Source of the DNA: a plasmid
Sequence record: NZ_CP021969.1
DNA length: 28,436 nt
Direction: 5' to 3' (one strand)
Shown here: positions 4,543 through 26,828 of the stretch, in pieces
How positions within the stretch are numbered: position 1 is the first letter of the stretch
Layout of the letters: each line of letters opens with the position of its first letter
Notes under the pieces: generated by a model
The model's database searches: none
What the model was told of the DNA's origin: nothing
Seen by the model: the letters and a program-made list of their open reading frames with translations, nothing else
Translations under genes and position numbers: made by a program

Positions 4543-4608
4543 TAGCTAGTCACCTCTTTATTTAAACGTTAGAATCAAGCCATATAGGCGTTATTTTAAT
4601 TATAAGCT

Positions 4609-4904: not shown

Positions 4905-4950
4905 TGAGCAAAAAGGAAGAGATGATTTTTTAAATTATTTCATCTCTTCC
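4905..4950 (-). terminator. copB rho-independent terminator: 11-bp perfect stem (GGAAGAGATGA / TCATCTCTTCC) followed on minus strand by a T-run
   Basis: Seen directly, about 70 nt downstream of copB stop (5019) on minus strand. Confidence 0.6.
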
Positions 4951-5018
4951 TTTCCTGTGAAACTATTGTATTTTTACACGATAAGGTCATTCAATTATTT
5001 CATGTGCCAAATAACTGT

Positions 5019-7229
5019 TTATTTTGGCTCTAATTTCAATGTCATAGCATTGATGGCAACAATTACAGTCGAAAGTGACATCAAGACGGCAGCGACTGCT
5101 GGACTTAATGTTATGCCAATTGGTGCTAGTATTCCTGCAGCTATTGGGATCGCGATAAAGTTATACCCTGCTCCCCAAACAAGATTTTCTTTCATCTTAC
5201 GTGTGGTCTTCTGAGCCAACTCGATAAAGGATTCAATGTCGCCAGGGTCTGACTGTGTCAAGATGACATCGGCTGAATCCAATGCTACTTGAGTTCCGGC
5301 ACCAATAGCTATACCAACGTCTGCTAGTGCAAGAGACGGTGCATCGTTGACCCCGTCACCGACCATGATAACTTTCTTTTCTTCTGCTTTAAGTTTTTCA
5401 ACTAATTCATATTTGTCTTGAGGAGATTGATTAGCTAGATAATCAATACCTAAAATTTCTGCAGCCCCTTGAGCCGCTTTTTCATTGTCACCCGTTGCCA
5501 TAATCGGCTGAATCTTGTTCTTTTTAAGGGCTTGTATTAAGGCTTTACTTGTCGGTTTTAATTCATCCCCTAAAGCTACAGCACCGATTGCTTCGTCGTT
5601 TTCTACTAAGACACTGAGGGTTGATCCTTTTGGAATATCCATATCCAGATTACGTCCATATGCTTTTTGACTGATTAATTGATAACGATGTCCGTTAGCT
5701 TGACCTTCTACACCAGCGCCAGAAATAACATCAATCGAATCAAAACTTACTGGACGTATCCCTTGATGTTCTGCGTAACTAATAATTGACTGAGCGATAG
5801 GGTGACTAGATCCACCTTCGATACCTGACAATAAGGCAACGATTTCATCTTTCGTATATTTATCATTAAGGAGTTCAACATCTAATACTTTAAACTCACC
5901 AGTTGTTAAAGTTCCAGTTTTATCTAAAACCATAACATCTGCGTTTGTAGTCAACTCCAAAGCGTCCCGGTCCTTCACTAATAATCCCCGACTGGCCCCT
6001 AAGCTGGTACTACGAGCAGTCACCAATGGAATAGCCAGACCCAGGGCATGCGGACAAGCAATAACTAATGTGGTGACTGTAAAAATAACTGCCGTTGGTA
6101 CATCAGCTATAACCATCCATATGACAAGGGCAATAAGAGCTACAATAACCGCAATATAAAAGAGCCATCCTGCAACTTTTTGTGCAAGATTTTCTGTTCG
6201 AGAATGTTGGCTTTGAGCTTGACTGATTAATGTCTGAACCTGAGAAATGAAGGACTTATCGCCCGTCTGCTTTATTTCCACATAGAGGACTCCGCCACCA
6301 TTGGTTGATCCACCGATGACCTCATCTCCAGGATTTTTTTCAATTGGTTTCGATTCCCCAGTCACAAGCGCTTCGTTTACACGTGATTCGCCACGCTGGA
6401 TCGTTCCATCTGCTGGAACATTTTCTCCGGCTTGAACACGAATCAAATCACCTACTTGCAAGTCAGCAACTGGACGAGTCTCAATCGAATCGTCTTCTAA
6501 AACAACATGAGCATCTTTCGGCACCAACTCAGCCAATGCTTTTTGCGCGTCCCCTGCTTCACCCAATGCCTTCATTTCAATCCAGTGTCCTAATAACATG
6601 ATTAAAATTAACGTTGTAAACTCAAAGAAGAAGTCCATGACATGTTCTCCGGTCACATATCGAGCGGCCACTGCGTAAACACTATAGGTATAAGAAACCG
6701 TTATTCCCAAAGTAATCAAGGACATCATGCCTGGAGCTTTTGAATTAAACTCATCTTTCGCACCCATGAAGAATGGTTTTCCGCCAAAAATGTATAGAAT
6801 TGTTGCCAATACAGCTGCTACAACGTCTGCATAAGGAAAGATAATTTGGAAAGGCAACTGAATATCCATCAAAGGAGTAATGAGTAAGATTGCAATTCCT
6901 AATGGGAGTGACTTCAAGAAAATCTCCTTAAAGCTACCGTGATGGTGGTGGGCATGCCCTCCCATTGCGCCATGATCCATTTCACTGTGATCCATCGCAT
7001 TATGATTCATCTTGCTGTGATCCATCTGACTATGTTCCATTTCATTATGGTCGTGTTTTGAGTGTTCCATGTCGCCGTGATGGTGGTGGGCATGCCCTCT
7101 CATTGCGCAATGATCCATCGCACTATGATCCATCTGACTATGTTCCATTTCATTATGGTCGTGTTTTGAGTGTTCCATGTCGCCGTGATTATGATGACTA
7201 TGTGACGAATGTTTTTTGTTATTCCTCAT
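5019..7229 (-). CDS. copB: Copper-translocating P1B-type ATPase (CopB/TcrB-like; His-rich N-terminus, CPH motif), 736 aa
   Basis: TGES (ALVTGESKP), CPH (VIACPHALG), DKTGTLT, GDGVNDAP motifs; N-terminal repeats rich in His/Met/Asp (HDHNEMEHSQMDHS). Confidence 0.95.
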   Translation of the reverse strand: MRNNKKHSSHSHHNHGDMEHSKHDHNEMEHSQMDHSAMDHCAMRGHAHHHHGDMEHSKHDHNEMEHSQMDHSKMNHNAMDHSEMDHGAMGGHAHHHHGSFKEIFLKSLPLGIAILLITPLMDIQLPFQIIFPYADVVAAVLATILYIFGGKPFFMGAKDEFNSKAPGMMSLITLGITVSYTYSVYAVAARYVTGEHVMDFFFEFTTLILIMLLGHWIEMKALGEAGDAQKALAELVPKDAHVVLEDDSIETRPVADLQVGDLIRVQAGENVPADGTIQRGESRVNEALVTGESKPIEKNPGDEVIGGSTNGGGVLYVEIKQTGDKSFISQVQTLISQAQSQHSRTENLAQKVAGWLFYIAVIVALIALVIWMVIADVPTAVIFTVTTLVIACPHALGLAIPLVTARSTSLGASRGLLVKDRDALELTTNADVMVLDKTGTLTTGEFKVLDVELLNDKYTKDEIVALLSGIEGGSSHPIAQSIISYAEHQGIRPVSFDSIDVISGAGVEGQANGHRYQLISQKAYGRNLDMDIPKGSTLSVLVENDEAIGAVALGDELKPTSKALIQALKKNKIQPIMATGDNEKAAQGAAEILGIDYLANQSPQDKYELVEKLKAEEKKVIMVGDGVNDAPSLALADVGIAIGAGTQVALDSADVILTQSDPGDIESFIELAQKTTRKMKENLVWGAGYNFIAIPIAAGILAPIGITLSPAVAAVLMSLSTVIVAINAMTLKLEPK
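6936..7196. repeat. In-frame tandem duplication (units of about 138 and 108 nt) encoding the His-rich metal-binding N-terminus of CopB
   Basis: GTGATGGTGGTGGGCATGCCCTC... recurs at 6939 and 7076; the protein shows GDMEHSKHDHNEMEHSQMDHS...GHAHHHH twice. Confidence 0.7.
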
Positions 7230-7367
7230 TTTTAATTCCTCCTTATTATATTAGAGACTGATTTTAAAGTTTTAGAACTTTCTCATCTAACACTGCATAT
7301 AATTCTCATGAAAAGGGTTCTATACTTTATCTCTATCTACTATCTATGAATAAATGGTATTCGTACT

Positions 7368-7732
7368 TTATGCACTTAATACTGAATAGTTAGTTTCTGC
7401 TAAAGCAGCATTGAGCGTTTCGGTATCAATCTCTGTTTGACTTTCAAGTACTGCTTTTTTAGTCGCTAAATCAACCTCTACAGATTCAACCCCTTCAATT
7501 GCAAAGGTTTGCGTCTTTCCCTCTTGGGCAATCAGTTCATACCCTGAATTATCCACCGCTTTTTGTAGATTTTCTACCGAAAAAGTTGGTTCATTGTATT
7601 CTATACTCAACTTTTCTGTTGCTAGGTTCACGGAAGCCTGTGTGACCCCACGTACTTTTTTGCCGCTTTTTCTACTGTCTGCGCACAAGACGCACAGGTC
7701 ATACCTTCTATGGCAAACGATTTATTCTCCAA
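7368..7732 (-). CDS. copZ: CopZ-like copper chaperone (HMA domain), apparently frameshifted at an A6 run; second degenerate HMA-like half
   Basis: From TTG at 7732 (GGAG 8 nt upstream): LENKSFAIEGMTCASCAQTVEKAAKK in one frame, then the ORF-track frame continues VRGVTQASVNLATEKLSIEY... A 1-nt shift at GCAAAAAAG joins them. The same shift is present in copy 2. Confidence 0.6.
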
Positions 7733-7744
7733 TTTTTTCGCTCC

Positions 7745-8200
7745 TTATTCTCCATGATGATGTAAATGGCAATCGCATTGCCCTTCTGTACACTGACAAT
7801 CTACTTCTTCTACTGCGAAAGCTTTTTTCATCTCTAATATTTCTTCTAGTCGCTGGATATCATCGAAGCTTAAGACATGATCTTCAATGACACTCCCTAC
7901 TACACTCCCGACATCCTTTCGACAAATACGGTTGAAAATATCGTCTGTATAATTTCCTACGGCTTCTTTCTCTTCAATATTGGTAGTATAAATAAATTTT
8001 CTACCTTCTTGCTCTGTATTTAGTACGCCTTTTTCAACCAGTCGACCTAAGAGCGTTTTGATAGTGGCTTGTTTCCAGTCCATTTTTTCTTTCAATATGG
8101 AGATGATTTCTTTACTAGTCACTCGACCATTCGCCCAGACTACACGCATAACTTCCCATTCAGCATCTGTGATATGAGGGTTAACTACTATTGTACTCAT
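7745..8200 (-). CDS. copY: CopY/TcrY copper-responsive repressor (BlaI/MecI/CopY family), 151 aa
   Basis: N-terminal winged helix (ITDAEWEVMRVVWANGRVTSKEIISIL...TIKTLLGRLVEKGVL); C-terminal CxCx4CxC (CQCTEGQCDCH); RBS GGAGGGAAAGAG. Confidence 0.9.
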   Translation of the reverse strand: MSTIVVNPHITDAEWEVMRVVWANGRVTSKEIISILKEKMDWKQATIKTLLGRLVEKGVLNTEQEGRKFIYTTNIEEKEAVGNYTDDIFNRICRKDVGSVVGSVIEDHVLSFDDIQRLEEILEMKKAFAVEEVDCQCTEGQCDCHLHHHGE

Positions 8201-8250
8201 TCTCTTTCCCTCCTTATTGTCTACATGCGTAAACGTAAATGTTTGAGATA

Positions 8251-8280
8251 AGTTTACTATTGTAAACCATTCCTGTCAAG
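8251..8280 (-). promoter_or_regulatory. copY promoter (TTGACA-17-TAAACT on minus strand) with overlapping cop-box palindrome GTTTACTATTGTAAAC (8252-8267)
   Basis: Perfect -35 TTGACA at 8275-8280 (minus); 16-bp perfect palindrome containing the TAC..GTA core of CopY/BlaI operators. Confidence 0.55.
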
Positions 8281-8344
8281 TCTTTTTTAAATAAATGTAA
8301 CCAGCTATTATTGCCTTTATTTTCCTATCTTTACCCAATACTAA

Positions 8345-8620
8345 TTATAAGGTTACCATTGATTTACTTTTATTGATTTTAGAATTCCTTATTTTTAAAA
8401 TCTCAAGTTCTTCGCGAAGTTTGTCGTTTTCCTTTTGTAATGCGTTTACATCAGCTTGCGTCCATTTTTCGCCGTCCACTTCGTGGACCGCGTACAGCTT
8501 GACCTAGTTACGGATTGAGTCGACCGAAGGTCCGTATTCAGCGGATAGATCAGTATATGAACGGCCTTGATTGTGCATCTCAACAAGAGACTGCTTAAAT
8601 TCTTTTTTGTATCGAATCAT
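8345..8620 (-). pseudogene. Truncated IS3-family transposase OrfA remnant with in-frame TAG (TGG to TAG) and loss of downstream orfB
   Basis: Minus-strand translation MIRYKKEFKQSLVEMHNQGRSYTDLSAEYGPSVDSIRN*VKLYAVHEVDGEKWTQADVNALQKENDKLREELEILK (HTH plus leucine-zipper typical of IS3 OrfA), then unrelated tail; RBS AGGAGC. Confidence 0.6.
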
Positions 8621-8733
8621 ATTAAAAAATGCTCCTATGCTATTAGTTTACAGGGCAGAAGAAAATCTGTCCGTAAATCTAGCATAAGAGCATTCCGCCA
8701 TTTAACTAGTCTTCTTTTCTTTTTTAGTTGTAA

Positions 8734-9312
8734 CTATTTACCAAAACGCCACCACTTTTTAGGTTTAGGTTGTGACTCCGGGGTGCTATTTTCAGGTTCC
8801 GGTTGTTTGTCTGACGTCACTTCTTTTTCACCATCATCATGCGGTGCCATCGTTAAGGCTTTCAAGTCCTTAATTTCTGCCTTGTATTCTTCGAGCAGTT
8901 GTTTGTCCTGTAAGGCTAGCCGTTGTTGTTGGTCTAATAAATTTTGCATTTGGTTCAATTGCTTAAAGTGTTGTGATTTAGTTTCTTTTAAATCTTCTAT
9001 TTGTGCATTCTGATACTTAATAATGTCATTTAAGTAGTTAATATCTGAATATTTTAGGTTGGCGTTTTCAAAGTTTTCGGTTTTTGATTCTGGTTGTTGA
9101 TATGTGTTTTCGGTTTTCGATTTATGGTTGTCGATTCCAGACGAAAACATTGTTCTTATAGCCTTTTGTCCGTTTTCGTTAACCAAAAACCGGTTCCCGT
9201 TTTTTGAAAACCATTGTTTTCGTTCGCTATCCGAAACTTTTTTGTTAATTGCAGTCTTACTAACTCCTAACTCATCAGCGAGTTCTCGAATTGTTTTTAA
9301 ATTTTCACTCAT
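8734..9312 (-). CDS. repB: Replication-associated protein RepB-like (N-terminal HTH, coiled-coil/DUF536-like C-terminus), 192 aa
   Basis: MSENLKTIRELADELGVSKTAINKK HTH; Q/E/K-rich coiled coil; start ATG overlaps the last 8 nt of repA (translational coupling), as in pUCL287-family replicons. Confidence 0.65.
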   Translation of the reverse strand: MSENLKTIRELADELGVSKTAINKKVSDSERKQWFSKNGNRFLVNENGQKAIRTMFSSGIDNHKSKTENTYQQPESKTENFENANLKYSDINYLNDIIKYQNAQIEDLKETKSQHFKQLNQMQNLLDQQQRLALQDKQLLEEYKAEIKDLKALTMAPHDDGEKEVTSDKQPEPENSTPESQPKPKKWWRFGK

Positions 9313-10459
9313 GATCTATATCCTGCCTTTTAACGATTGGTAGATACTGTTCAATCGATTTTTTAAGATACTTAGCAATATTCTTTTTCGAATAGTCATC
9401 TTGTTTGTCTCTGATATAGGCTAAGTGTTCTTTCACGCCCTTTAAACCACGTGACTCTTTTAATTCGTCATAAAGTGGATAAACATTTTTCTGTAACCCT
9501 GACAAAATAGTAGTATCCGTTAAATCAATATATGACAATAAAAACTGCTCCATAAGTAACTTTGTATAGGGACTTTTTATTGCCTTAACAGTCAACATAT
9601 CTTCTGTTTCTTCTTGACGGATCTTGCCCTCGATATAAACGGGATCATCTAGCTTGTAACTAATATCATCTGCCACTTGGTTTTTAGTGATATGAAAGAC
9701 AATACTCTCAATGCTGCGTCCTTTTTTTACTTTTTCATACGTAACATTAAAGCTGGTATGGTTTGTGATTTCTTTAATCGGATCTTTTAATACTCTTCTT
9801 TCAAAATCAGTAAACTTTTTATATTCACTCACCGTATCGGTCGTGTCGCGCAATTCCCGAATAGTGATTATCGGATTACGGTAACTTTCCACTTGCTCTT
9901 CTCTTCGCCCACCTTTAACGCTGTAATGCTCATATTGGTTGTAATTCATTGATAACCAACGGTACAAAATGATTGCATACTTGCTATTCAATTCAGAAAT
10001 TTCTGATAAGGCATGTTGCGTAAAATTGGTTTTGAGATTGATTAAATAAGGCATGATTTCGGGGCTAAATCGAATTAATACCTCATCATGATAATCAGTC
10101 CATTCCACATAAGGGATTGGCACAATACTAACGAATTTAAAACCTTTATCTTGTTCTTTTTTAATCTGAAAAAAAGCCTGTTTTTGCATTTTTTCAATTG
10201 CTTCTTTAAAACGACTATGTTTATTGCTATCATCCACGTTAAAAAAAGCAAATAACTCTTGCTTGGATAAATAAACTGTCTGGTCTTTCGGTGGATTTTC
10301 TGTATCAATTAAAGAAACAGCTAATTCAAACATTTTAAGCGGTGTTTTATCCATTTTGGCAATCGACGTGATTAGGCTATTATGTTCAACTACTTTTCGT
10401 TTTGATAATTCATTCAAGGTCTGTACCTGCCTTGTCTTTGATTCTGTTATAATAGACAT
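9305..10459 (-). CDS. repA: Theta-type replication initiator RepA (Rep_3 family, pUCL287-like), 384 aa
   Basis: N-terminus TLNELSKRKVVEHNSLITSIAKMDKTPLKMFELAVS typical of Rep_3 initiators; located immediately downstream of iterons. Confidence 0.9.
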   Translation of the reverse strand: MSIITESKTRQVQTLNELSKRKVVEHNSLITSIAKMDKTPLKMFELAVSLIDTENPPKDQTVYLSKQELFAFFNVDDSNKHSRFKEAIEKMQKQAFFQIKKEQDKGFKFVSIVPIPYVEWTDYHDEVLIRFSPEIMPYLINLKTNFTQHALSEISELNSKYAIILYRWLSMNYNQYEHYSVKGGRREEQVESYRNPIITIRELRDTTDTVSEYKKFTDFERRVLKDPIKEITNHTSFNVTYEKVKKGRSIESIVFHITKNQVADDISYKLDDPVYIEGKIRQEETEDMLTVKAIKSPYTKLLMEQFLLSYIDLTDTTILSGLQKNVYPLYDELKESRGLKGVKEHLAYIRDKQDDYSKKNIAKYLKKSIEQYLPIVKRQDIDHE

Positions 10460-10571
10460 ATAAATACGCTCCTTTAGGCGTGTTGTTGGATAAGCATAAA
10501 GAAAAACTTTTAGTCGGGAATTTCTTTATGCTTTTATTATAACATTATATAGCGACAAAATATTTTAAACA

Positions 10572-10647
10572 GTCGCTATATACATAGTTTTTTGTCGCTA
10601 TATACATAGTTTTTTGTCGCTATATACATAGTTTTTTGTCGCTATAT
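10572..10647. repeat. Origin iterons: 22-bp direct repeat GTCGCTATATACATAGTTTTTT x3 plus a 10-bp partial; inverted partial copy at 10547-10556
   Basis: Seen directly; 112 bp upstream of repA start on the replicon side. Confidence 0.8.
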
Positions 10648-10762
10648 TACCTATTAAACCCTTGATATTACTGAATTTCTAACTACGCAAAAGAACAAAA
10701 GATTAAAATATAAAAGATAAACTTATAATAGGCTCCGCCTTTTTATTGATTCAATAAAAAAC

Positions 10763-10818
10763 AAAACAAAAAGAACACTGGTGCACATAAATTTCGTACA
10801 GAGTGTTCTTTTTGTTTT
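10763..10818. terminator. Bidirectional terminator: 16-bp perfect stem (AAAACAAAAAGAACAC / GTGTTCTTTTTGTTTT) with 24-nt loop, T-runs on both sides
   Basis: Seen directly, about 150 nt downstream of mob stop (minus strand). Confidence 0.6.
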
Positions 10819-10960
10819 GAATCATTTCAAATGCTGGATACCTAGTTATCTATCATAATTGCCACTTATTAAGCCAATAGCGACGTTTTAAGTTACTTAA
10901 TGATTATTTCTACGTATTTCATCTAAAAACGCTTAGACGGGCAAATAAGCCGTTATAACG

Positions 10961-12196
10961 TTAGAGACTGGGTCCTTTAAAAATATCACGCGTTAATTCA
11001 ATGATCCGATTGATTAATGCTTTAACTTGTTCAATACCCCAATCTAATCTACTAGGTGCTATTTTGGTGTCTGGATCTTCTCTAGCTGTCGTCAAGGTTT
11101 TTAACCATGACTGGGCCGTTTTTTTATTTTTTGTCAGTTCTTCATGATCAAGCTTATAAAGGACATAGCGGGCCTCCACATCAGTAAAGGACAGTTTGTC
11201 GACACCATAATCATTTTTAAGCATATCGCGCATCACATAGTCCATCTTTTGCTTTTCTCGTTGATCTGCCTGCAGCGTTTGATGTGCTGCTTTCAGTTTT
11301 TGATAGTCTTCTTGGACAGCTGCTAGCTGCGCTTTGACTTGTCTTAACGTTTGCTTGAGTTCTTCCGTCTCATTCTGGCTTTGTAGGGTGGCTTTCTTCA
11401 TCGTGGCTAACACACTTTTAAAGCGATCTAAGTCATCTGGTTTAAGCACCGTCTTACCAAAGAGGTTTTTAGATAAGTCTTGTTTAAAGTCATCAATTTG
11501 TTTTTCGGCTAAGTCAACTTCGGTTAAGGCTTGATCCGTGATTTTGAGTACAGCCTGTTTAGCACGAATATTTTCTTCAACGTCAGCTAGTTCATCCTTC
11601 AAGGCGTTAAACTGATCATTGTATTTTTTGATTTCAGCGACATTCTCAAACGGTAAGGTTTTATTATTTAAAATGCCTTTTTCATAAAAAGGGAGCCCCT
11701 TTTTTAAATCCTGATCTAGATCCTCATGAAAGGTTTGTAGATCATGACGCGTTAGCACTTCTTTAGCGGATACTTTATAACGTGTCTTTTTATCATCAAA
11801 AACCACTGGGACAAAGGCATAGTGCAAGTGAGGGGTTGTCTCGTCATAATGCACGACAGCGGCCACGGCATTTTCTTGACCATAACGGCCATTAAGAAAA
11901 TTGGTGGTTGCTTCAAAAAAGGCGCTCTGTTGCTCGTAGGGCGCTTCTGTAAGTTCTTCAGGTAAAGTGACAATCCAAGTCGCTAACGCCTTCACATCGT
12001 CTCTTTTCATGCAATAAACGTCATTTAAACGCTCATTGAAACGTGAAAGCATATCAGAACCATCTGTCATCAGATCTTGATTCAGATAGGTTTTCGACAC
12101 ATCAATATCTTTGTTAGTGTGATGGTCGGTTTTACGCTCAAAATGAACGGCTAAACCAGGCACTGCACCACGGGTATTTTTCTTTAAATGCGCCAT
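10961..12196 (-). CDS. mob: MobV-family relaxase (Mob_Pre), 411 aa from ATG with GAGGAGG RBS
   Basis: MAHLKKNTRGAVPGLAVHFERK N-terminus, HYDETTPHLHYAFVP (HxDExxPHxH motif III); long coiled-coil C-terminus. The ORF-track start at 12241 is an upstream non-ATG extension. Confidence 0.9.
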   Translation of the reverse strand: MAHLKKNTRGAVPGLAVHFERKTDHHTNKDIDVSKTYLNQDLMTDGSDMLSRFNERLNDVYCMKRDDVKALATWIVTLPEELTEAPYEQQSAFFEATTNFLNGRYGQENAVAAVVHYDETTPHLHYAFVPVVFDDKKTRYKVSAKEVLTRHDLQTFHEDLDQDLKKGLPFYEKGILNNKTLPFENVAEIKKYNDQFNALKDELADVEENIRAKQAVLKITDQALTEVDLAEKQIDDFKQDLSKNLFGKTVLKPDDLDRFKSVLATMKKATLQSQNETEELKQTLRQVKAQLAAVQEDYQKLKAAHQTLQADQREKQKMDYVMRDMLKNDYGVDKLSFTDVEARYVLYKLDHEELTKNKKTAQSWLKTLTTAREDPDTKIAPSRLDWGIEQVKALINRIIELTRDIFKGPSL

Positions 12197-12253
12197 AAAA
12201 ATTGCCTCCTCGAAAAAGGTTTTACGAGACCAGTATAACACCGTTAAAAATCT

Positions 12254-12271
12254 GGTATAGCCTGTTATACC
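12254..12271 (-). other. Candidate oriT (pMV158/MobV-type): GGTATAGCCTGTTATACC inverted repeat
   Basis: Lies about 60 nt upstream of mob. Strongly resembles the pMV158 oriT core GTATAGTGTGTTATAC (from memory; nick expected inside the G-rich loop). Confidence 0.5.
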
Positions 12272-12289
12272 AAAATTCTATTTTGGACA

Positions 12290-12500
12290 GGCTCTGCGAG
12301 GCGTGTCATCGACAAGCGATGCCAGTAGCGTTTCCCCTTCCTGCTGGGGAAACTGCTATTTTACAGCGCCTATTATCCGGCTTGTAAAACCTCCGGCGGG
12401 TCACGCCGTGACAGGGCAATTTATCATTGCAGGATCACCTTCAGTGAGAGCATGTCATGCAGAACGCTACCCGCGCGGGGCAAGCTGGTGTCAGCTTAAC
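12290..12500. other. GC-rich (roughly 55% by eye vs about 35% surroundings) highly structured non-coding island; candidate ssoA-like single-strand origin or structured RNA
   Basis: Hairpins TTTCCCC-7nt-GGGGAAA, GTCAC-3nt-GTGAC, CCGG-12nt-CCGG, GCTG-4nt-CAGC; TAGCGT hexamer (CS-6-like) at 12320-12325; no RBS-preceded ORF. Confidence 0.3.
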
Positions 12501-12539
12501 CACAATAAAATAATCTGTAAACGTAAGTGTATAATAACA

Positions 12540-12620
12540 AAAAAATTGTAGTGGACTATCGCAATTAATAGGTGTTATACAATAAAAGCAAACAAAAAGG
12601 CACCCTTAAGGTGCCCACAT
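12540..12620 (+). ncRNA. Candidate antitoxin antisense RNA (RNA II-like), convergent with the Fst-like toxin mRNA and sharing its terminator
   Basis: TGTATAAT -10-like element at 12528-12535; ends at shared hairpin 12599-12615 plus T-run; AATAGGTGTTATACAAT (12567-12583) is repeated as AATATAGTGTTATAATG (12807-12823) in the toxin 5' leader. Confidence 0.3.
12599..12620. terminator. Bidirectional terminator GGCACC-CTTAA-GGTGCC flanked by A/T runs
   Basis: Seen directly, 10 nt beyond the toxin stop codon. Confidence 0.5.
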
Positions 12621-12624
12621 TATT

Positions 12625-12729
12625 TTAACGATCATTAAGATCATCAAAATAACGTTTAATTGCGAACGTCACAACAGCAACACAGATTGCGTTAAACAAT
12701 TGTGTAAGTTCTTGAAAAAAGTAAAACAT
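12625..12729 (-). CDS. Fst-like type I toxin peptide, 34 aa (MFYFFQELTQLFNAICVAVVTFAIKRYFDDLNDR)
   Basis: Perfect RBS AAGGAGG 9 nt upstream of ATG; single hydrophobic helix followed by a charged DDLNDR tail, as in Fst/Ldr-family toxins; identical and intact in copy 2 (26829..26933). Below ORF-track size cutoff. Confidence 0.55.
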   Translation of the reverse strand: MFYFFQELTQLFNAICVAVVTFAIKRYFDDLNDR

Positions 12730-13186
12730 GGAGTCTAAACCTCCTTGCCGTTGCAGTATAGTAGGAAACAACAGCTTTTTAAGTATATCATGTTTTGAAA
12801 TACCAATAATATAGTGTTATAATGTTAATAGAAGAAAGTACATGGAGACTAACCTCTCTAGTAAAAAGGGCTAGTGCGTAGGAACACCAGCTCTTTTTGT
12901 TTGTCTTTTTTGAAGCAAGTTTCCTTTCAGGGCAAGACAGTGTATAATTATAAACAATAACTGCCATGAAACAGCTCTGCTGTTTCAAAGGCTTGGGCCA
13001 GTACGCTGGGCAAGCCTGGTGGCCCACTTTAAAATACAGTGACGCTGATAGTATGATGGCTAGACTGTTATTTTGACAATTAAAGGCGCTTCAAAAAATT
13101 TCTTTAACCCCCAAATCACTAATAGGGGGGTTAAATTTACAAAAAAGCCAACAGGCAAACAACCCTCATGCTTACGGGGAGTCGGG

Positions 13187-13256
13187 TTACAGCGAAAAAA
13201 TATTCGTGTAAAAATCGCTGTAATAATGAAAATATGATGATAAAAATCGCCTGTAA
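13187..13256. repeat. Three copies of a 9-10-bp motif (TTACAGCGA inverted; TCGCTGTAA; TCGCCTGTAA) about 70-140 nt upstream of the 94-aa gene
   Basis: 13187-13195, 13215-13223, 13247-13256; each preceded by AAAAA. Candidate operator for the downstream gene. Confidence 0.4.
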
Positions 13257-13325
13257 GATGGCATTTTTTATTATATAAATCATTTTTAGGTTGCTATCAA
13301 GCTATTTACGATTAAGGAGGATTAT

Positions 13326-13610
13326 ATGACATACAATGCGATTAAAGGACGCTTTACACGCGTTGCGCCCGATAAATCGACAGTATACGGTGATAAGCAG
13401 TACACCTTTGCCTTAACACCAGAACAAAGTGAACAGATTGACCAGGCTGTTTATGCGGTTGTCCTGGCCAAAAATTACAAAACGACCTCGTTCTCAATTG
13501 ATGAGAAGTTAACGTTGTCTGACGAAGAAGTCGCCCAACACAAATTGGTGGTCCGTTTACGCCTCCGCAAAAAGCACAAACAGCCGTCTCATAAACCGCT
13601 CACGGACTAA
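13326..13610 (+). CDS. Hypothetical 94-aa protein with strongly basic C-terminal tail (RLRLRKKHKQPSHKPL)
   Basis: Perfect RBS TAAGGAGGATTAT-ATG; identical and intact in both copies (27531..27815). Confidence 0.7.
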   Translation: MTYNAIKGRFTRVAPDKSTVYGDKQYTFALTPEQSEQIDQAVYAVVLAKNYKTTSFSIDEKLTLSDEEVAQHKLVVRLRLRKKHKQPSHKPLTD

Positions 13611-13697
13611 AATTTCACAAATCCTAAAAGCCTTGCTACCAGCATTGTGAGAGCTAGACCAATTATTTTTAGCTCAATTCACAAGAACAGATCACAG

Positions 13698-13738
13698 AAA
13701 AAGCGCCAAACCCTATTTATTCAGGTTTGGCGCTTTTT
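13698..13738. terminator. Bidirectional rho-independent terminator: A5, 11-bp perfect stem (AGCGCCAAACC / GGTTTGGCGCT), T5
   Basis: Seen directly, between the convergent 94-aa gene and the XRE-TM gene. Confidence 0.7.
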
Positions 13739-13790
13739 AGTTTAGATAAGCTACATTATGTTTGTTGAGTTTCTAGTATTCCCCAGTTAC

Positions 13791-14302
13791 TTAATTAATA
13801 CTAGATCCGACAAACCCTCTTATCAAACCGTCTATAACTTCCATTACTGGTATAACTGCGTACAAAAATATCAACAGGCCTATGGCAATGATCAGTTTTT
13901 TATTTAAAATACTAATCAATGAATGCCAGTTAATTTTTGTTAGAATGTATATGATTAGCACAAGGATTGGAATAGCTAAATAAGTAGATACGTTTGATTC
14001 GATTGAAGCCAAAATAGCTGAGTAGAACAATTTTAAAATAAATAACCGATAGTTCCAACTACCATTGCACTGATTAGGCTTATCGTAACCACACGATAAA
14101 ATTTGCGTTCTTGTTGATTTTCTCTTAATTTTTCAACCATAGTTTCATCTCCCAAAAATAAATCATCTAATGACAAGTTTAAGTATTTAGATATTAAAAT
14201 AATATTTTCAATATCGGGTAACGTTTTACCTGTCTCCCAATTAGATATGGTTTTATTAGACACCAATAATTTATTAGCCAAATCCATTTGTGTTAGAGAC
14301 AT
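13791..14302 (-). CDS. XRE-family HTH transcriptional regulator fused to a C-terminal 3-TM membrane domain; split in this copy by a 1-nt homopolymer indel at about 14031
   Basis: N-terminus MSLTQMDLANKLLVSNKTISNWETGKTLPDIENIILISKYLNLSLDDLF (HTH_XRE); hydrophobic segments follow. Copy 2 reads through (…GTIGYLFLKLFYSAILAS…) with one extra A. Confidence 0.7.
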
Positions 14303-14836
14303 TTTTTTGCCTCTTTGCTTTTATCAAATTATGGAATATCACGACTATCCTCCCTGCACTTGTTATGACATTAAACATATCCCTATGACGTCAATTTAGC
14401 AATGGAAAGTCCTTACCAATCCTTATGATAAGGGTTCATTATCGTGCTATTTAAAGTTAACCAAATTGATTTGAGCTACTTCACTGCGCTTCAATTAATA
14501 TTTATTATGTTAGTTTATTTAGTTCAGCTGTTATTTTTCTACCAGAAGTCAAGTGTTTCAAGGTACTTGACTTCTTTTCTTTTTAGCTTCCTTCATTAAA
14601 AAAATCCAGATTAAGCAGTAAATTAACACAAAAATACCCTCAAATTATTTCTTCAACCTGATATATATTCAATATGCTATATATTGTTTGAATGGATAAA
14701 ATTAGACTATTAAAAAATGCCAATTTAACATAATTATCGGCTATAATTCTATAACATTTAATAAATGAGGATAATTGATTGATGAACACTATATTATTAA
14801 TTAAAAAAAGTTGAGCAAATTTTCTTGTTTTCTTTA

Positions 14837-14850
14837 TGAAAACGTTTACA
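14837..14850 (+). promoter_or_regulatory. cre site copy 2 (TGAAAACGTTTACA)
   Basis: Identical to 611-624. Confidence 0.45.
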
Positions 14851-14893
14851 ATTTAAGATGTTCATGGTGTGAAAAAATCAAAGGAGAACAAAC

Positions 14894-15909
14894 ATGGAAG
14901 CACTTGTGTTAACTGGTACAAAAAAATTAGAGGTTAAAAGCATTGAAAAACCTGGAGGTTAAGCCCAATGAAGTTTTGATTCATACAGCATTCGCTGGTA
15001 TTTGTGGTACTGATCATGCTTTGTATGCCGGCCTTCCCGGCTCAGCAGATGCTGTACCACCAATTGTTTTGGGTCATGAAAATTCCGGTGTTGTAGCTGA
15101 GATTGGTTCATCTGTTACAAACGTTAAGGTAGGAGACCGTGTGACGGTTGATCCTAATATTTACTGCGGTCAATGTAAGTATTGCCGTACGGGACGCCCA
15201 GAACTTTGCGAAAACTGTCGGCTGTTGGTGTTACACGTAATGGTGGATTTGAGGAATACTTTACGGCACCTGCATCAGTTGTTTACCAAATTCCTGATAA
15301 TGTGTCATTGAAGTCAGCTGCTGTGGTTGAACCTATTCATGTGCAGTGCACGGAATTAAGTTGCTTAAAGTAACACCATATCAAAAAGCTTAGTTATTGG
15401 TGATGGATTTATGGGTGAACTATTTGTTCAACTTTTGCAAGCTTATGGCATTCACCAAGTCGATTTGGCCGGTATTGTTCCTGAAAAGCTTGCTATGAAT
15501 AAAGAAAATTTTGGCGTGAAAAACACCTACAATACCAAAGATGGTGATAAAATTCCTGAGGGCGCTTATGATGTTGTTGTTGAAGCAGTTGGGTTTACCA
15601 CAAACACAAGAAGCAGCCATTGAGGCTTCAGCCCGTGGTGCTCAAGTTTTGATGTTTGGTGTTGGCGGTCCTGACGCAAAGTTCCAAATGAACACTTATG
15701 AAGTCTTCCAAAAGCAATTGACGATTCAAGGATCATTTATCAATCCAAATGCCTTTGAAGATTCATTGGCATTGTTGTCATCAGGCAAGTTGAATGTTGA
15801 GGATTTGATGTCACATGAATTAGACTACAAGACTGTTGACGATTTTGTTAACGGTAAGCTTGGTGTCGTTTCCAAAGCTGTGGTTAAGGTTGGCGGAGAA
15901 GAGGCATAA
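14894..15909 (+). pseudogene. Copy 2 of Zn-dependent dehydrogenase, broken into at least 4 frames by indels
   Basis: ORF-track fragments 14943..15311, 15182..15373, 15411..15623, 15541..15909 together reproduce the copy-1 protein. Confidence 0.8.
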
Positions 15910-15912
15910 TCA

Positions 15913-16639
15913 ATGGATTCACAAGACGTCTTAGACAGTAAAATTCATGGTCGCAAGTTAACAATTGGTGTCTCATTGTCTTATTTATTTTCTCTTTAGT
16001 GATTAATGCTGCCGGTAACGTTTTAACTGTTGTTACAAGTCAAAAATACACCCAACCTTTTTAGGATCAGCGTATTGGACTGCTGCATCAGCTGGAGTTA
16101 ATAAAGCGATATTTAATGGAAACAGCAGCATGCTGGGATGGGTGTTTTTCGTTATTGGTGTGGTTGTTGCTATTTTAAATGTCTTTCTTCAGGGACACTT
16201 TAACGCAAGAAAATTTTTTGGTAACATTGCATTCATGGTGCCTTTCTCCGCATTGATTAGTTATTTCGCCAATATCTTTTCAAGCATTATGCCTGATTCA
16301 CAAAGTATTGGTATGACAATTTTCTATGTTATTTTAAATTTTTTCGGTGTTTTCTTAATTGCCATTGCTATTTCTATTTATCAACGTGTTAATTTGGTAT
16401 TACATCCAGCAGATGATTTGATGCAAATTTTACGCTTTAAATATTTTAAAGGTTCCGCGGCCAAGGCCATGTGGGCGTCCTATATTCCACCAACTATCTT
16501 AGCTATTATTGCAATCATCATTTACCCTGATTTTTCAAATTATGGGTTAGGAACAGTTTTTGCCTTCTTATTCCAGGGTGGTATAACTGGTTGGGGAGAC
16601 AAGGCAATTTTCCCAAATTTAAAGCACCAAGGCGTGTAA
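15913..16639 (+). pseudogene. Copy 2 of membrane protein; N-terminal third frameshifted
   Basis: 16130..16639 matches the copy-1 C-terminal 169 aa exactly. Confidence 0.75.
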
Positions 16640-16685
16640 AAGTAACTGATAAATTAATGGTTAATATCTTAAAGGAGCAAATTAA

Positions 16686-17065
16686 ATGGCATTTTCAGAT
16701 TATTATTCAGGGGTCCAACACATTGGTATTCCTACAAAAGATTTGGCAACAGCAGAAGTTTTTGGACAAAACTTGGTTTCAAAAGACGGGTGATTTCCCA
16801 GTCGGAGATGTTATCTTTATGCAGCGCGATAATTTAGTTATTGAGACTTGGCACGCTGATGAGGTGGCTGGTAAGCCTGGTGCGATTAATCATATTTCAA
16901 TGGATACAACAGACGCTGATGCTGCTTTGCTGCAGCCAATCTGAAGGGTTTGACTTAATCGACGATGAAGTACAACATTTAGATTTCTGGAAAAAAGGAA
17001 TTAAATTCTTTAATATTTCGGGACCAGATGCTGTGATTGTTGAATTTTGTGAAATTGTTAAGTAA
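16686..17065 (+). pseudogene. Copy 2 of VOC-family protein; frameshifted
   Basis: ORF fragments 16591..16944 and 16841..17065 carry copy-1 peptide stretches. Confidence 0.75.
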
Positions 17066-17236
17066 AAGATGTTTCTCAACGGCTATCTTGCGATGGCCGT
17101 TTTTTCAGACATTTTCAGGGAGAATTATTATGTAAAAATATTAGCTTAAATTGTCTGTGAACAATCTATTAGACTCACAATGATGAGCGCTATATGATTA
17201 CTGTGAATAATTAATTGATAAAGAAAAGAGAACAAG

Positions 17237-18105
17237 ATGGGATTATTGGGTGCAATTGAAGCAGGTGGAACAAAATTTGTTGTTGCTGTAGCTGATCATA
17301 ATTATAATATTGTAGAGCGTACAGCATTTCCAACGTTGGATGGTCAGAAAACGCTTGATCAAGTTTTTCGTTTTTTGATCAGTTCGATAATATTGATGCA
17401 ATTGGTATTGCTGCCTTTGGCCCAATTGATATTATTGAGCAGTCTAAAACATATGGGTATGTTTTGGCCACTCCAAAAACAGGTTGGTCTGGGTATAACT
17501 TTTTGGGACGAATGAAGGAATGGCGTGACATTCCCTATTATTGGACAACTGATGTTAATGGAGCTGGCTGGGCAGAGTTTGAAACAGGTGCCGCAAAAAA
17601 CGTTGACAATATGGTTTATTTGACCGTAGGTACTGGTGTTGGAGCTGGTATTGTATCTAGTGGCCATTTAGTGAGTGGCTATAGCCACCCAGAAGCTGGA
17701 CATATTTTCTTGCAAAAGCATCCAGCCGACAATTATGTGGGGCACTGCCCCTTCCATGATGATAATTGCTTGGAAGGTCTTGCGGCTGGACCTGCTATTG
17801 AGGAACGTTGGCATATGAGTGCTAAAGAATTCCTGATGATGCTGAAGCATGGAAAATAGAAGCATTTTACTTAGCTCAGGCCAGCGTTGGATTATACAAT
17901 GATTCTACGTCCAGATAAATCGTTTTTGGCGGTGGGGTGCCACATCGTGAAATGTTATTCCCACTCATTCGTGAAAGTTTTGCAGAACAAATGAGTGATT
18001 ATCTTGATGTGCCAGACTTAGACAATTACATTGTTCCTCGTAGCGAATGGTGATAATGCCGGAATTTTGGGTTGTTTTTACTTGGCCAAAACATTATTGC
18101 CTTAA
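17237..18105 (+). pseudogene. Copy 2 of ROK fructokinase; multiple frameshifts
   Basis: Fragments 17237..17515 and 17464..17859 match the copy-1 protein. Confidence 0.8.
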
Positions 18106-18176
18106 AATATAATTTTGTTAATTACGCTTAACATAGATAAGCAAATAATACTTGTCATTGTCTAAAGTCCATTATT

Positions 18177-18758: not shown

Positions 18759-19199
18759 TAGCTAGTCACCTCTTTATTTAAACGTTAGAATCAAGCCATA
18801 TAGGCGTTATTTAATTATAAGCTAAAAAACAGCCCCTAACAAACCAAAGCGATAGGGGCTGTTTTAATAGTCTTTCCTAGGGGTCATTATTATAGACCCT
18901 GAGTTAAGGAATGTACTGATGTTTTCTAGTAGTCCCTAGTTTGATAATGTTTATTGTATTTTCTGTATTTAGTTATTCGATGATCGAGGCTAATATGTCA
19001 GTCTTCCAAGCAGCCATTGGTTAGTATATCAATTTTTATAATCGCAATCGTATCTCAAATGTTGCCTAAGTAACTGAATAAAATAGTCCAATTTATTGAC
19101 TTCTGAGCAAAAAGGAAGAGATGATTTTTTTAAATTATTTCATCTCTTCCTTTCCTGTGAAACTATTGTATTTTTACACGATAAGGTCATTCAATTATT

Positions 19200-21929: not shown

Positions 21930-21942
21930 TTTTTTCGGCTCC

Positions 21943-26475: not shown

Positions 26476-26828
26476 AAAATTCTATTTTGGACAGGCTCTG
26501 CGAGGCGTGTCATCGACAAGCGATGCCAGTAGCGTTTCCCCTTCCTGCTGGGGAAACTGCTATTTTACAGCGCCTATTATCCGGCTTGTAAAACCTCCGG
26601 CGGGTCACGCCGTGACAGGGCAATTTATCATTGCAGGATCACCTTCAGTGAGAGCATGTCATGCAGAACGCTACCCGCGCGGGGCAAGCTGGTGTCAGCT
26701 TAACCACAATAAAATAATCTGTAAACGTAAGTGTATAATAACAAAAAAATTGTAGTGGACTATCGCAATTAATAGGTGTTATACAATAAAAGCAAACAAA
26801 AAGGCACCCTTAAGGTGCCCACATTATT

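What the first reader, a model, noticed from the sequence alone, without database searches (positions are those of the whole stretch)
12290..12500. GC-rich, multi-hairpin non-coding island beside oriT: possible ssoA-like lagging-strand origin or structured RNA
About 200 bp are markedly GC-richer than the rest of the plasmid and densely palindromic (TTTCCCC/GGGGAAA, GTCAC/GTGAC, GCTG/CAGC). A TAGCGT hexamer like the ssoA CS-6 loop motif is present. A theta replicon does not need an sso, but a MobV-transferred single strand does need a priming site in the recipient. The island may be a relic of the RCR plasmid that donated the mob cassette. Alternatively it may be foreign DNA (ColE1-like bom flavour) or an sRNA.
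Basis: partly seen in the sequence, partly recalled or inferred. Interest (0 to 1): 0.55.

Follow-up and report, generated by a model that had tools for sequence, protein, structure and literature searches.

The report
Probable transfer-strand priming site beside oriT
The GC-rich stretch is a real, conserved, hairpin-rich non-coding module that always sits at the outer end of a MobV oriT–relaxase cassette in plasmids of lactic acid bacteria, and it most likely lets the recipient cell copy the transferred single DNA strand; this is a known job done by a sequence type not yet catalogued.

Summary
Window 12290-12510 has 56% GC against a 37% background, and it is the only stretch of the plasmid at or above 50% GC. 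Both strands fold far better than shuffles.

The window is a head-to-tail dimer of a ~14.2 kb theta plasmid, so an identical copy lies at 26494-26714.

The element directly abuts a pMV158-type oriT and a MobV relaxase gene. I found about 100 homologues in two forms:
- A long form of ~226 nt, mostly on theta plasmids of Leuconostoc and Weissella.
- A short form of ~150 nt at ~70% identity, on small pMV158-family rolling-circle plasmids.

Orientation relative to oriT is fixed. Homology between plasmids usually stops exactly at the element's outer end. Hairpins are kept by compensatory changes.

The element occupies the slot that ssoU holds in pUB110 and pMV158. My best reading (about 0.6) is a single-strand origin for complementary-strand synthesis of the transferred strand.

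It is not ssoA: the RSB motif is absent, and TAGCGT is neither conserved nor in a loop. It shows no sequence similarity to ssoU or ssoT references or to any Rfam family. ssoW and ssoL could not be tested.

Function and the active strand are inferred, not shown.

The parts
12290..12510 (-). Whole element, copy 1. It is the long form of a conserved, multi-hairpin, GC-rich non-coding module. The candidate functional strand is the - strand, which is the mob-sense strand and the predicted transferred strand.
   Evidence: GC 55.9%. Fold z -4.25 / -4.53. About 100 homologues. Homology between plasmids ends at 12500-12519 in 75 of 93 loci.
12504..12510 (-). T-run (TTTTATT on the - strand) that marks the outer, 5' boundary of the module.
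   Evidence: Present at the 5' end of both the long and short forms. It coincides with the homology breakpoint.
12482..12497 (-). Hairpin A: AAGCTG-ACAC-CAGCTT.
   Evidence: The G-C to A-T compensatory change is seen in 2 of the 31 sequences counted and in many short-form variants. A ~30-nt module containing it recurs in the ssoT-like element of L001 at 1350-1377.
12470..12480 (-). Hairpin B: CCC-NNNNN-GGG. It can extend through G.T pairs into the neighbouring TAGCGT.
   Evidence: The stem is constant and the loop variable. RNAalifold extends it with three G.T pairs that change to Watson-Crick pairs in L008, L097, L041 and L128.
12464..12469 (-).
   Evidence: The fourth base varies: C in most long forms, A in short forms, T in L057. 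L102 reads TATCGT. It is predicted paired or bulged, not in a terminal loop.
12450..12460 (-). Hairpin C: GCAT-GAC-ATGC, inside the invariant stretch GTTCTGCATGA.
   Evidence: Cells paired 99.2%. Recovered by RNAalifold. Invariant columns listed.
12435..12447 (-). Hairpin D1: TCAC-TGAAG-GTGA. Long form only.
   Evidence: A-T changes to G-C through G.T intermediates. L106 rebuilds the hairpin with a different stem.
12416..12430 (-). Hairpin D2: GCAAT-GATAA-ATTGC. Long form only.
   Evidence: Cells paired 99%. Absent from the short form.
12400..12412 (-). Hairpin E: GTCAC-GGC-GTGAC.
   Evidence: The short form has GCTAT-GCA-ATAGC at the same place, so three of five pairs changed on both sides. 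G.T intermediates appear in L099, L066 and L096.
12359..12389 (-). Hairpin F: TTTTACA/TGTAAAA around an inner GCC/GGC stem. The invariant loop GGATAATA lies at 12371-12378.
   Evidence: Two pairs change on both sides, giving TTTTTCT/AGAAAAA in the short form. The loop and inner stem are invariant in 31 sequences.
12326..12358 (-). Hairpin G: TTTCCCC/GGGGAAA, extended by TAGC/GCTA. On the + strand it reads as a terminator-like hairpin followed by TTTTA.
   Evidence: Four compensated stem versions exist: TTTCCCC, TTCCCCC, TTTTCCC and TTCTCCC, each with a matching partner.
12305..12323 (-). Hairpin H: G(G/T)CATCG-CTTGT-CGATGAC. Long form only.
   Evidence: Cells paired 94.6%, with one C-G to A-T change. 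pUB110 has a hairpin, GTCGGCA-CT-GCCGAC, at the same place before the box.
12290..12301 (-). Junction box CCTCGCAGAGCC, which joins the element to oriT.
   Evidence: Shared with pUB110 (GCCTCGCAGAGC) and the short form (CCTCGTAGAGCC). In pMV158 the left arm of IR3 begins at 'gagCac', which in the matching pUB110 sequence lies at the end of this box.
12253..12286 (-). pMV158-type oriT. IR1 is CCAAAAT-AGA-ATTTTGG and IR2 is TGGTATA-ACAGGC-TATACCA. The nick is predicted near 12260/12261 on the - strand.
   Evidence: Read from the sequence against pUB110 and L001. The pMV158 nick is 5'-GTG/TTATAC on the coding, transferred strand (PMC5863519). The nick position here is inferred.
10961..12196 (-). 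MobV (Mob_Pre) relaxase gene, 411 aa.
   Evidence: Pfam PF01076, E = 4.6e-29. In 60 of 66 long-form loci a Mob start lies 64-90 nt beyond the element on the same strand.
26494..26714 (-). Second, identical copy of the element in the second plasmid unit of the window.
   Evidence: Self-alignment of the window. Exact repeat of 12285-12510 at 26489.

Best explanation
The island is a single-strand origin (sso) that belongs to the MobV mobilisation cassette.

Proposed mechanism:
1. The relaxase nicks oriT on the mob-sense strand, which is the window's - strand, near 12260.
2. That strand enters the recipient 5' to 3', mob first.
3. The island (12505 down to 12290) is the last stretch to arrive and lies just 5' of the nick.
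4. As single-stranded DNA it folds into eight or so hairpins, with invariant loop and junction sequences such as GGATAATA, GTTCTGCATGA and TAGCAG.
5. A host enzyme recognises this structure and lays down a primer. The enzyme may be RNA polymerase, as for ssoA and ssoU, or a primase or primosome.
6. DNA polymerase extends the primer in the + direction, towards rising coordinates, and so copies nearly the whole plasmid in one run.

In the small rolling-circle relatives the same strand is also the displaced strand, so there the element can serve vegetative replication as well. On this theta plasmid only transfer needs it.

Shown: the element is real, discrete, structured and conserved; it is linked and oriented to oriT; and it shares its slot with the strongly folding pUB110 segment that I take to be ssoU. 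Inferred: that it is used as single-stranded DNA, which strand is active, that it primes synthesis, and which enzyme acts.
For: 1. Discrete module. It is the only region at or above 50% GC. Homology to other plasmids ends at 12500-12519 in 75 of 93 loci.

2. Conserved structure.
- 97% of cells pair, against 39-45% when partners are slid.
- 9 pairs show changes on both sides, against 0-3 when slid.
- 0 of 500 shuffles reach the observed values.
- RNAalifold independently recovers hairpins B, C, F and G.
- Hairpins E, F and G are rebuilt with different bases between the long and short forms.

3. Fixed link to oriT.
- 60 of 66 long-form loci have a Mob start 64-90 nt downstream on the same strand.
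- In short-form loci where a cassette separates oriT from mob, the element stays with oriT.

4. Correct strand and position for an sso.
- In pMV158 the coding strand is the transferred one (PMC5863519).
- In L001 the dso nick motif CACTACGAC lies on the same strand as mob and rep.

5. Same slot as ssoU. In pUB110 the ~300 nt before the shared GCCTCGCAGAGC box fold with z = -7.2. pMV158 carries ssoU and ssoA flanking its mobilisation cassette (PMC5737340).

6. Retention on theta plasmids.
- Among long-form loci where a Rep was held, 18 are theta and 1 is rolling-circle.
- Among short-form loci, 13 are rolling-circle and 1 is theta.
- The ssoT-like element next to the dso occurs in 12 of 35 short-form loci and in 0 of 66 long-form loci.
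- So the element that was kept is the one tied to transfer.

7. Modularity. The element is ~70% identical between contexts whose Mob proteins are only 34% identical.

8. Precedent.
- Loss of ssoU lowers pMV158 transfer 300-1000-fold (PMC4595007).
- MobV modules or relaxase genes on non-rolling-circle elements carry ssos: IMESag-rpsI (PMC5090054) and ICEBs1 sso1.

9. It is not coding. The 82-aa frame is open in only 30 of 50 variants.
Against: - There is no functional data of any kind.
- There is no detectable sequence similarity to reference ssoU (pUB110), ssoT (pTA1060) or ssoA (pE194, pC194). nhmmer --max found nothing at E <= 100.
- The sequences do not tell which strand is active. G.T against A.C variant pair types number 11 against 9.
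- Minimum free energies of the two strands differ by less than 1 kcal/mol. In the long form the complement is slightly the more stable.
- The architecture is many short hairpins, unlike the long hairpins of ssoA and ssoU, and no long duplex that could form a -35/-10 single-strand promoter is evident.
- The rolling-circle relatives already carry an ssoT-like element, so the island is not needed to explain their replication.
- Many homologues are closely related, so the shuffle statistics overstate independence.
Confidence: 0.6

Rival explanations
1. The island is an accessory part of oriT that acts in the donor. As double-stranded DNA or extruded cruciforms it would bind the relaxase, a host protein or the helper's coupling protein, and so raise nicking or recruitment. 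It would not prime synthesis in the recipient.
For: The element directly abuts the oriT box and is never separated from it. Hairpin H plus the box has a counterpart in pUB110. The structure is equally good on both strands, as expected for a cruciform or duplex site.
Against: - The oriT defined in pMV158 spans about 43 nt, with a 26-nt minimal binding site, and no upstream element is described as needed for binding (PMC5863519).
- The element is ~70% identical beside relaxases that are only 34% identical and beside different oriT repeats. That argues against recognition by the cognate relaxase.
- Compensatory changes that keep eight separate small hairpins suit a folded single strand better than a duplex binding site.
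Confidence: 0.15
2. The island is a structured RNA. It could be a small RNA made from a promoter in the oriT region and ended by hairpin G plus TTTTA on the + strand. Alternatively it could be a long leader read in the mob direction.
For: Covariation cannot distinguish RNA from DNA. A terminator-like hairpin with a T-run is conserved on the + strand in both forms. A weak extended -10-like TGtTATACC lies at 12263-12271, as read from the sequence.
Against: - No Rfam family matches.
- No canonical promoter is found on the + strand in or just before the element.
- A + strand RNA stopped at hairpin G would leave hairpins F, E, C, B and A unexplained.
- In the mob direction the element follows a terminator directly, both in L001 and in the window.
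- The pMV158 mob promoters lie inside and downstream of oriT (PMC5863519).
Confidence: 0.1
3. The element serves the theta replicon itself. It could be a primosome assembly site for lagging-strand synthesis, a replication pause site, or a multimer-resolution site.
For: Most long-form copies sit on theta plasmids. A tyrosine recombinase gene is present on the plasmid at 3961-4542.
Against: The element lies about 1.75 kb from the 5' end of repB (10459), on the far side of mob. It travels with oriT and mob rather than with the replicon, since homology breaks at its outer end. It also occurs on rolling-circle plasmids that have unrelated Rep proteins.
Confidence: 0.05
4. The element is a functionless relic that hitch-hikes with a recently spread mob cassette.
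For: Most long-form copies are 90-98% identical, so much of the conservation could reflect recent spread. Degraded copies exist, such as L106, and so do half-copies.
Against: - Changes on both sides keep pairing in at least 9 pairs.
- Whole stems are rebuilt between forms that are 30% diverged.
- Loops and junctions are invariant over that distance.
- The outer boundary is sharp and reproducible.
Confidence: 0.1

Closest known systems
ssoU (palU) of pUB110 and pMV158
   Same: It occupies the same slot: immediately 5' of the MobV oriT on the transferred, coding strand, joined through the same GCCTCGCAGAGC box. It is a highly structured non-coding segment; the pUB110 slot folds with z = -7.2 and the island with z about -4.5. 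It is known to matter for conjugal transfer, not only for vegetative replication (PMC4595007; PMC6607859).
   Different: There is no sequence similarity. ssoU is AT-rich with long hairpins, while the island is GC-rich with many short ones. ssoU is experimentally proven and the island is not. That the pUB110 segment equals palU rests on my own knowledge; the record carries no such annotation.
ssoA (palA) of pE194, pC194, pLS1 and IMESag-rpsI
   Same: It is a lagging-strand origin found with MobV modules, including on a non-rolling-circle element (PMC5090054). A TAGCGT hexamer is present in the island.
   Different: The RSB motif TTTATGCCGAGAAAA and its partner arm are absent. The extended CS-6 hairpin TAGCG(T/A)NAGCTA is absent. 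The island's TAGCGT varies between homologues and is not in a terminal loop. ssoA is one long hairpin, and it lies downstream of mob in pMV158 and IMESag-rpsI.
ssoT of pTA1060 and pBAA1, and sso1 of ICEBs1
   Same: It is GC-rich relative to its host plasmid and has several separate stem-loops. An ssoT-type origin sits next to a relaxase gene on a conjugative element (PMC4595007). Hairpin A of the island resembles the last stem-loop of the ssoT-like element in L001.
   Different: There is no significant similarity to the pTA1060 ssoT. The one shared hairpin is at the opposite end of the element. The order of stem-loops is not collinear.
Single-strand initiation signals and single-strand promoters of Gram-negative conjugative plasmids (G4-type ssi, Frpo)
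   Same: They are folded signals on the transferred strand that host enzymes use after entry (from my own knowledge).
   Different: Those lie in the leading region, which enters first, and some drive early gene expression. This element enters last and has no gene downstream of it in the priming direction that it obviously serves.

Membership tests
Single-strand origin (functional class) | Non-coding segment with extensive intrastrand pairing when single-stranded | tested here: met
   z = -4.25 / -4.53 for the long form and z = -4.0 for the short form. Pairing is conserved with compensatory changes. No conserved ORF.
Single-strand origin (functional class) | Fixed orientation on the strand that becomes single-stranded, placed just upstream of the nick | tested here: met
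   Orientation relative to oriT and mob is constant in the roughly 100 loci examined, and the Mob start is 64-90 nt away in 60 of 66 long-form loci. The transferred strand is the coding strand in pMV158. The dso nick motif is on the same strand in L001.
Single-strand origin (functional class) | Orientation-dependent conversion of single-stranded to double-stranded plasmid DNA; primer synthesis by RNA polymerase or primase | not testable with these tools
   Needs ssDNA Southern blots, transfer assays and in vitro priming.
ssoA | RSB motif (TTTATGCCGAGAAAA) paired at the base of the hairpin | tested here: not met
   The motif was derived from the pE194 and pC194 palA regions. No match with up to 3 mismatches in or near the island.
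ssoA | Conserved CS-6 (TAGCGT/A) at the tip of the main hairpin | tested here: not met
   The hexamer is present but varies to TAGAGT, TAGTGT and TATCGT. It is predicted paired or bulged. The extended form TAGCGWNAGCTA is absent.
ssoU | Sequence similarity to the pUB110/pMV158 ssoU | tested here: not met
   blastn with word size 7 and nhmmer --max against the whole of pUB110 found nothing significant.
ssoU | Position immediately upstream of the MobV oriT | tested here: met
   Shared box and layout with pUB110.
ssoT | Sequence similarity to the pTA1060/pBAA1 sso and its three stem-loops in order | tested here: not met
   No hit to NC_001766 6349-6549. Only a ~30-nt hairpin is shared with an ssoT-like neighbour.
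ssoW and ssoL | Similarity to the pWV01 ssoW or to the ssoL type | not tested
   pWV01 is not in the collections. No paper held describes ssoL beyond its name.
Rfam RNA families | Covariance-model match at the gathering score | tested here: not met
   No match in the island at the gathering score. At E <= 10 only weak hits touch its edges: mir-2187, SQ2397 and SprD, at 16-17 bits against gathering scores of 67-100.
MOBV1 (pMV158-type) oriT, for the flanking sequence | IR1/IR2 repeats with a nick motif upstream of a Mob_Pre gene | tested here: met
   Repeats at 12253-12286 and box at 12290-12301, read against pUB110 and L001. Mob_Pre E = 4.6e-29. Nicking itself was not tested.

The most novel reading that the evidence does not exclude
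The element is a previously unclassified type of Gram-positive single-strand origin. It would be GC-rich and multi-hairpin, and unrelated in sequence to ssoA, ssoU and ssoT. Its role would be recipient-side establishment after conjugation. It would travel as the outer end of MobV cassettes and be kept on theta plasmids that have no vegetative need for an sso.
Probability: 0.4. Interest if true: 0.6.

Novelty: new variant of a known kind. Interest (0 to 1): 0.45.

Why it matters
About 165 sequenced plasmids of Leuconostoc, Weissella, Enterococcus, Latilactobacillus, Pediococcus and related genera carry this element. In nearly all records listed it is unannotated; a few call it a hypothetical protein.

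If it is the priming signal for the incoming strand, it would help set how well mobilisable plasmids establish in new hosts. These include plasmids of food-fermentation strains and small resistance plasmids carrying an erm-type cassette.

It would also give a clean case of an sso kept purely for transfer on theta replicons. That extends what is known from pMV158, ICEBs1 and IMESag-rpsI.

In practice it defines a marker for the outer end of a MobV cassette. It is also a candidate part for building shuttle or mobilisable vectors for lactic acid bacteria.

Tried and rejected
- Rfam at gathering and permissive thresholds found nothing in the island.
- blastn and nhmmer against pUB110 (ssoU), pTA1060 (ssoT), pE194 and pC194 (ssoA) found no similarity.
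- The ssoA motifs RSB and extended CS-6, derived here from pE194 and pC194, are absent.
- I tried to identify the functional strand from G.T against A.C wobble asymmetry. The counts were 11 against 9 variant types, which is not informative.
- I also tried from minimum free energies of the two strands over 76 variants. The difference is under 1 kcal/mol and the direction is inconsistent between forms.
- The coding hypothesis is rejected: the 82-aa frame is open in only 30 of 50 long-form variants, and the indels between forms remove whole hairpins.
- The long-range stem pairing the two TAGCGT copies is only weakly supported. The central pair is a mismatch in most short forms, and a local TAGC/GCTA extension of hairpin G fits both forms better.
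- The promoter scan found no canonical promoter inside the element.
- Literature searches for a description of this element, and for ssoL, found nothing usable.
- pMV158 and pWV01 could not be fetched. Several older papers are not held.
- The 17-mer genome scan returned mostly chance matches and had to be filtered by blastn.
- I did not build a covariance model, because nhmmer with filters off had already found nothing in the reference plasmids.

Full report
**What is in the window**

The window is two head-to-tail copies of a plasmid of about 14.2 kb. Copy 1 is 1-14229 and copy 2 is 14230-28436, at 99.4% identity. Of the 82 differing alignment columns, 80 are gaps. Most of these are single-base indels in short homopolymer runs, and a few are 2- to 5-base indels. 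This looks like an uncorrected long-read assembly of a circle rather than two diverged plasmids. The finding therefore has an identical twin at 26489-26714.

The replicon is theta-type. The Rep protein has Rep3_N, Rep3_C and L_lactis_RepB_C domains, and a ctRNA_pND324 match lies next to it. The gene to the left of the finding, 10961-12196 on the - strand, encodes a Mob_Pre (MobV) relaxase.

**The observation**

- The stretch 12290-12500 has 55.9% GC in a plasmid averaging 37.5%.
- It is the only part of the plasmid at or above 50% GC.
- As single-stranded DNA, both strands fold much better than shuffles, with z = -4.25 and z = -4.53.
- TAGCGT is present at 12326-12331 (+), and its inverted partner is at 12469-12464 (-).
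- The hexamer is no more frequent in the window than chance predicts.

**Anatomy**

I read the element on the - strand, which is the sense strand of mob. From 12510 down to 12290 it consists of:
1. a T-run;
2. hairpin A (AAGCTG/CAGCTT);
3. hairpin B (CCC-N5-GGG);
4. the invariant GTTCTGCATGA containing hairpin C;
5. hairpins D1 and D2;
6. hairpin E (GTCAC/GTGAC);
7. CCGCCGGAGG;
8. hairpin F (TTTTACA/TGTAAAA), with an inner GCC/GGC stem and the invariant loop GGATAATA;
9. TAGCAG;
10. hairpin G (TTTCCCC/GGGGAAA), extended by TAGC/GCTA;
11. hairpin H;
12. the box CCTCGCAGAGCC.

The box runs straight into the inverted repeats of a pMV158-type oriT at 12253-12286, and then into the mob ribosome-binding site and start codon. 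pUB110 has the same GCCTCGCAGAGC box and a hairpin before it.

**Relatives**

The element is widespread.
- About 160 plasmid records contain it: Leuconostoc about 100, Weissella 22, Enterococcus 12-22 depending on the query, then Latilactobacillus, Pediococcus and others. Most are typed as mobilisable.
- In nearly all listed records the stretch is unannotated.
- Pattern scans of genomes and metagenomes brought the set to 101 loci.

There are two forms.
- The long form is ~226 nt and 86-98% identical to the window.
- The short form is ~150 nt and ~70% identical. It lacks hairpins D1, D2 and H.
- The short form sits on 2.7-3.9 kb plasmids with CopG/RepB rolling-circle replicons of the pMV158 family.
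- Where a Rep gene was within the DNA held, the long form goes with theta Rep3 (18 against 1) and the short form with rolling-circle Rep (13 against 1).

**Structure is under selection**

On a 31-sequence alignment with my hairpin model:
- 97% of cells form standard pairs, against 39-45% when partners are slid by one to three columns;
- 9 pairs show changes on both sides, against 0-3 when slid;
- no shuffle out of 500 reaches the observed values.

RNAalifold independently recovers hairpins B, C, F and G.

The clearest evidence is between the two forms.
- Hairpin E is GTCAC/GTGAC in one and GCTAT/ATAGC in the other.
- Hairpin F is TTTTACA/TGTAAAA against TTTTTCT/AGAAAAA.
- Hairpin G appears as TTTCCCC, TTCCCCC, TTTTCCC or TTCTCCC, each with the matching partner.

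Loop and junction sequences such as GGATAATA, GTTCTGCATGA and TAGCAG are invariant across this 30% divergence. That suggests sequence-specific recognition as well as shape.

One caveat applies. Many sequences are close relatives, so the shuffle counts are not probabilities.

**Context**

The element is tied to oriT.
- In 60 of 66 long-form loci a Mob start lies 64-90 nt beyond it on the same strand. Of the other six, three elements are truncated and three contigs end too soon. Three further full-length copies are remnants whose oriT or mob is disrupted.
- In many short-form loci a cassette with an erm-type leader lies between oriT and mob. The element stays with oriT.
- Homology between the window and other plasmids ends at 12500-12519 in 75 of 93 loci. 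The element is therefore the outer end of a mobile module: element, oriT, mob.
- The module is itself mosaic. The long-form and short-form Mob proteins are only 34% identical, and the oriT repeats differ, yet the elements are ~70% identical.

**Which strand, and why an sso**

In pMV158 the relaxase cuts 5'-GTG/TTATAC on the coding strand, and that strand is transferred (PMC5863519). By homology the transferred strand here is the - strand, nicked near 12260. Transfer runs 5' to 3' into mob, so the element is the last part to enter and lies next to the 3' end. A primer made there can be extended round almost the whole plasmid.

Rolling-circle plasmids place their sso just upstream of the dso nick for the same reason. 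In L001 the dso nick motif lies on the same strand as mob.

pUB110 has, in exactly this slot, about 300 nt that fold with z = -7.2. From my own knowledge this is palU/ssoU. pMV158 is described as having ssoU and ssoA flanking its mobilisation cassette (PMC5737340). Loss of ssoU lowers its interspecies transfer 300-1000-fold (PMC4595007). MobV or relaxase modules on elements that do not replicate by rolling circle also carry ssos (PMC5090054; PMC4595007).

The short-form plasmids also have an ssoT-like element next to their dso. It is present in 12 of 35 short-form loci and in 0 of 66 long-form loci. The theta plasmids therefore carry the oriT-linked element but not the dso-linked one. That pattern is expected if the island serves transfer.

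**What it is not**

- It is not ssoA. From pE194 and pC194 I derived the RSB motif and the CS-6 tip hairpin, and neither is present. The island's TAGCGT varies between homologues and is predicted in a stem or bulge.
- It has no detectable sequence similarity to the pUB110 ssoU or the pTA1060 ssoT.
- It matches no Rfam family.
- It is not a conserved ORF.
- No Enterobacteriaceae or ColE1-type plasmid appeared among the hits from 72,556 plasmids.
- ssoW and ssoL could not be compared.

**Limits**

- Nothing here shows function.
- The sequences do not reveal which strand is active. Wobble asymmetry is flat, and the two strands fold about equally well.
- The only hint is that RNAalifold extends hairpin B with three G.T pairs that exist only on the - strand. 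In four homologues these become Watson-Crick pairs.
- The priming enzyme is unknown.
- The many-short-hairpin design differs from ssoA and ssoU.
- A donor-side role in oriT function, or a short RNA ended by the terminator-like hairpin G on the + strand, remain possible.

**Verdict**

The finding is a real, discrete and conserved structured module. It is most likely a transfer-linked single-strand origin of a sequence type I could not place in ssoA, ssoU or ssoT. The ssoA/CS-6 detail and the 'relic' reading are not.

It is of moderate interest. The kind of element is known, but this version appears undescribed in the literature I could search.

Noticed in passing
window 1-14229 and 14230-28436: The window is a head-to-tail dimer of one ~14.2 kb plasmid. 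Of the 82 differing alignment columns, 80 are gaps, mostly single-base indels in short homopolymer runs plus a few 2- to 5-base indels. This looks like an uncorrected long-read assembly of a circle. ORF lengths differ between the copies for this reason; for example the mob ORF is 426 aa (from GTG) in copy 1 and 386 aa in copy 2.
   Followed up: yes
window 12598-12730 (second copy about 26802-26934): On the - strand, 12730-12626 plus the stop codon at 12625-12623 form a small ORF for a hydrophobic 34-aa peptide, MFYFFQELTQLFNAICVAVVTFAIKRYFDDLNDR, with a strong ribosome-binding site. Promoter-like sequences on the + strand converge on it, and a bidirectional terminator lies at 12598-12616. The layout resembles a type I toxin-antitoxin (Fst/par-like) locus. 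There was no Pfam hit.
   Followed up: partly
L001 1130-1400; also L002, L003, L004, L013, L060, L127 and others: The small rolling-circle relatives carry a second structured element between mob and the dso. It has patches like the pTA1060 ssoT (GTCAACGGTAA..., TTAAGGAGTTGA). Its last stem-loop, CAAGCTG-ACA-CAGCTTG, is nearly the same as hairpin A of the island but sits at the opposite end of the element. I cannot say whether this is a shared functional motif or a recombination scar.
   Followed up: partly
short-form loci L008, L097, L133, L135, L136, L141, L162, L167, L177, L179, L192, L194, L196 and others: Between oriT and mob these loci carry an inserted cassette. It begins with a short leader ORF (MRSYVRHYPLAIAKLMCLCSPKIC) that looks like an erm-type attenuator. 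In L133 and L177 mob resumes about 870 nt further on. The resistance cassette therefore appears to have landed between oriT and the relaxase gene.
   Followed up: no
L106 1922-2147 and flank; L088, L143, L168, L193: These are degraded or rearranged copies. In L106 the oriT is deleted between two nick-like motifs (GCCTGT|TATACTGG), mob is broken, and the element has drifted to 86% identity. The four other loci have the element joined to an inverted copy of the oriT box and no mob, as if produced by relaxase-mediated recombination.
   Followed up: no
PLSDB hits H86-H89, H145-H150; L093 5031-5141: Half-elements exist. Some plasmids hold only the outer half (window 12398-12505). pMRI 5.2 holds only the inner half next to oriT. 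This suggests a recombination point near hairpin E.
   Followed up: no
window 6937-7189 (and 21134-21386): Overlapping direct repeats with offsets of about 108 and 138 nt (92-94% identical) lie at the 5' end of the P-type ATPase gene at 5019-7229 on the - strand. They probably encode repeated N-terminal metal-binding domains. A Penicillinase_R/CopY-type repressor gene lies at 7745-8200.
   Followed up: no
window 12985-13030: A second, smaller GC-rich hairpin, AGGCTTG-GGCCAGTACGCTGGG-CAAGCCT, lies in the non-coding stretch to the right of the toxin-like locus. I did not examine it.
   Followed up: no
L129 2999-3027 and 10146-10174: A 13.8 kb metagenome contig carries the element twice, 7147 nt apart, with identical sequence. 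It is probably another plasmid assembled as a concatemer.
   Followed up: no
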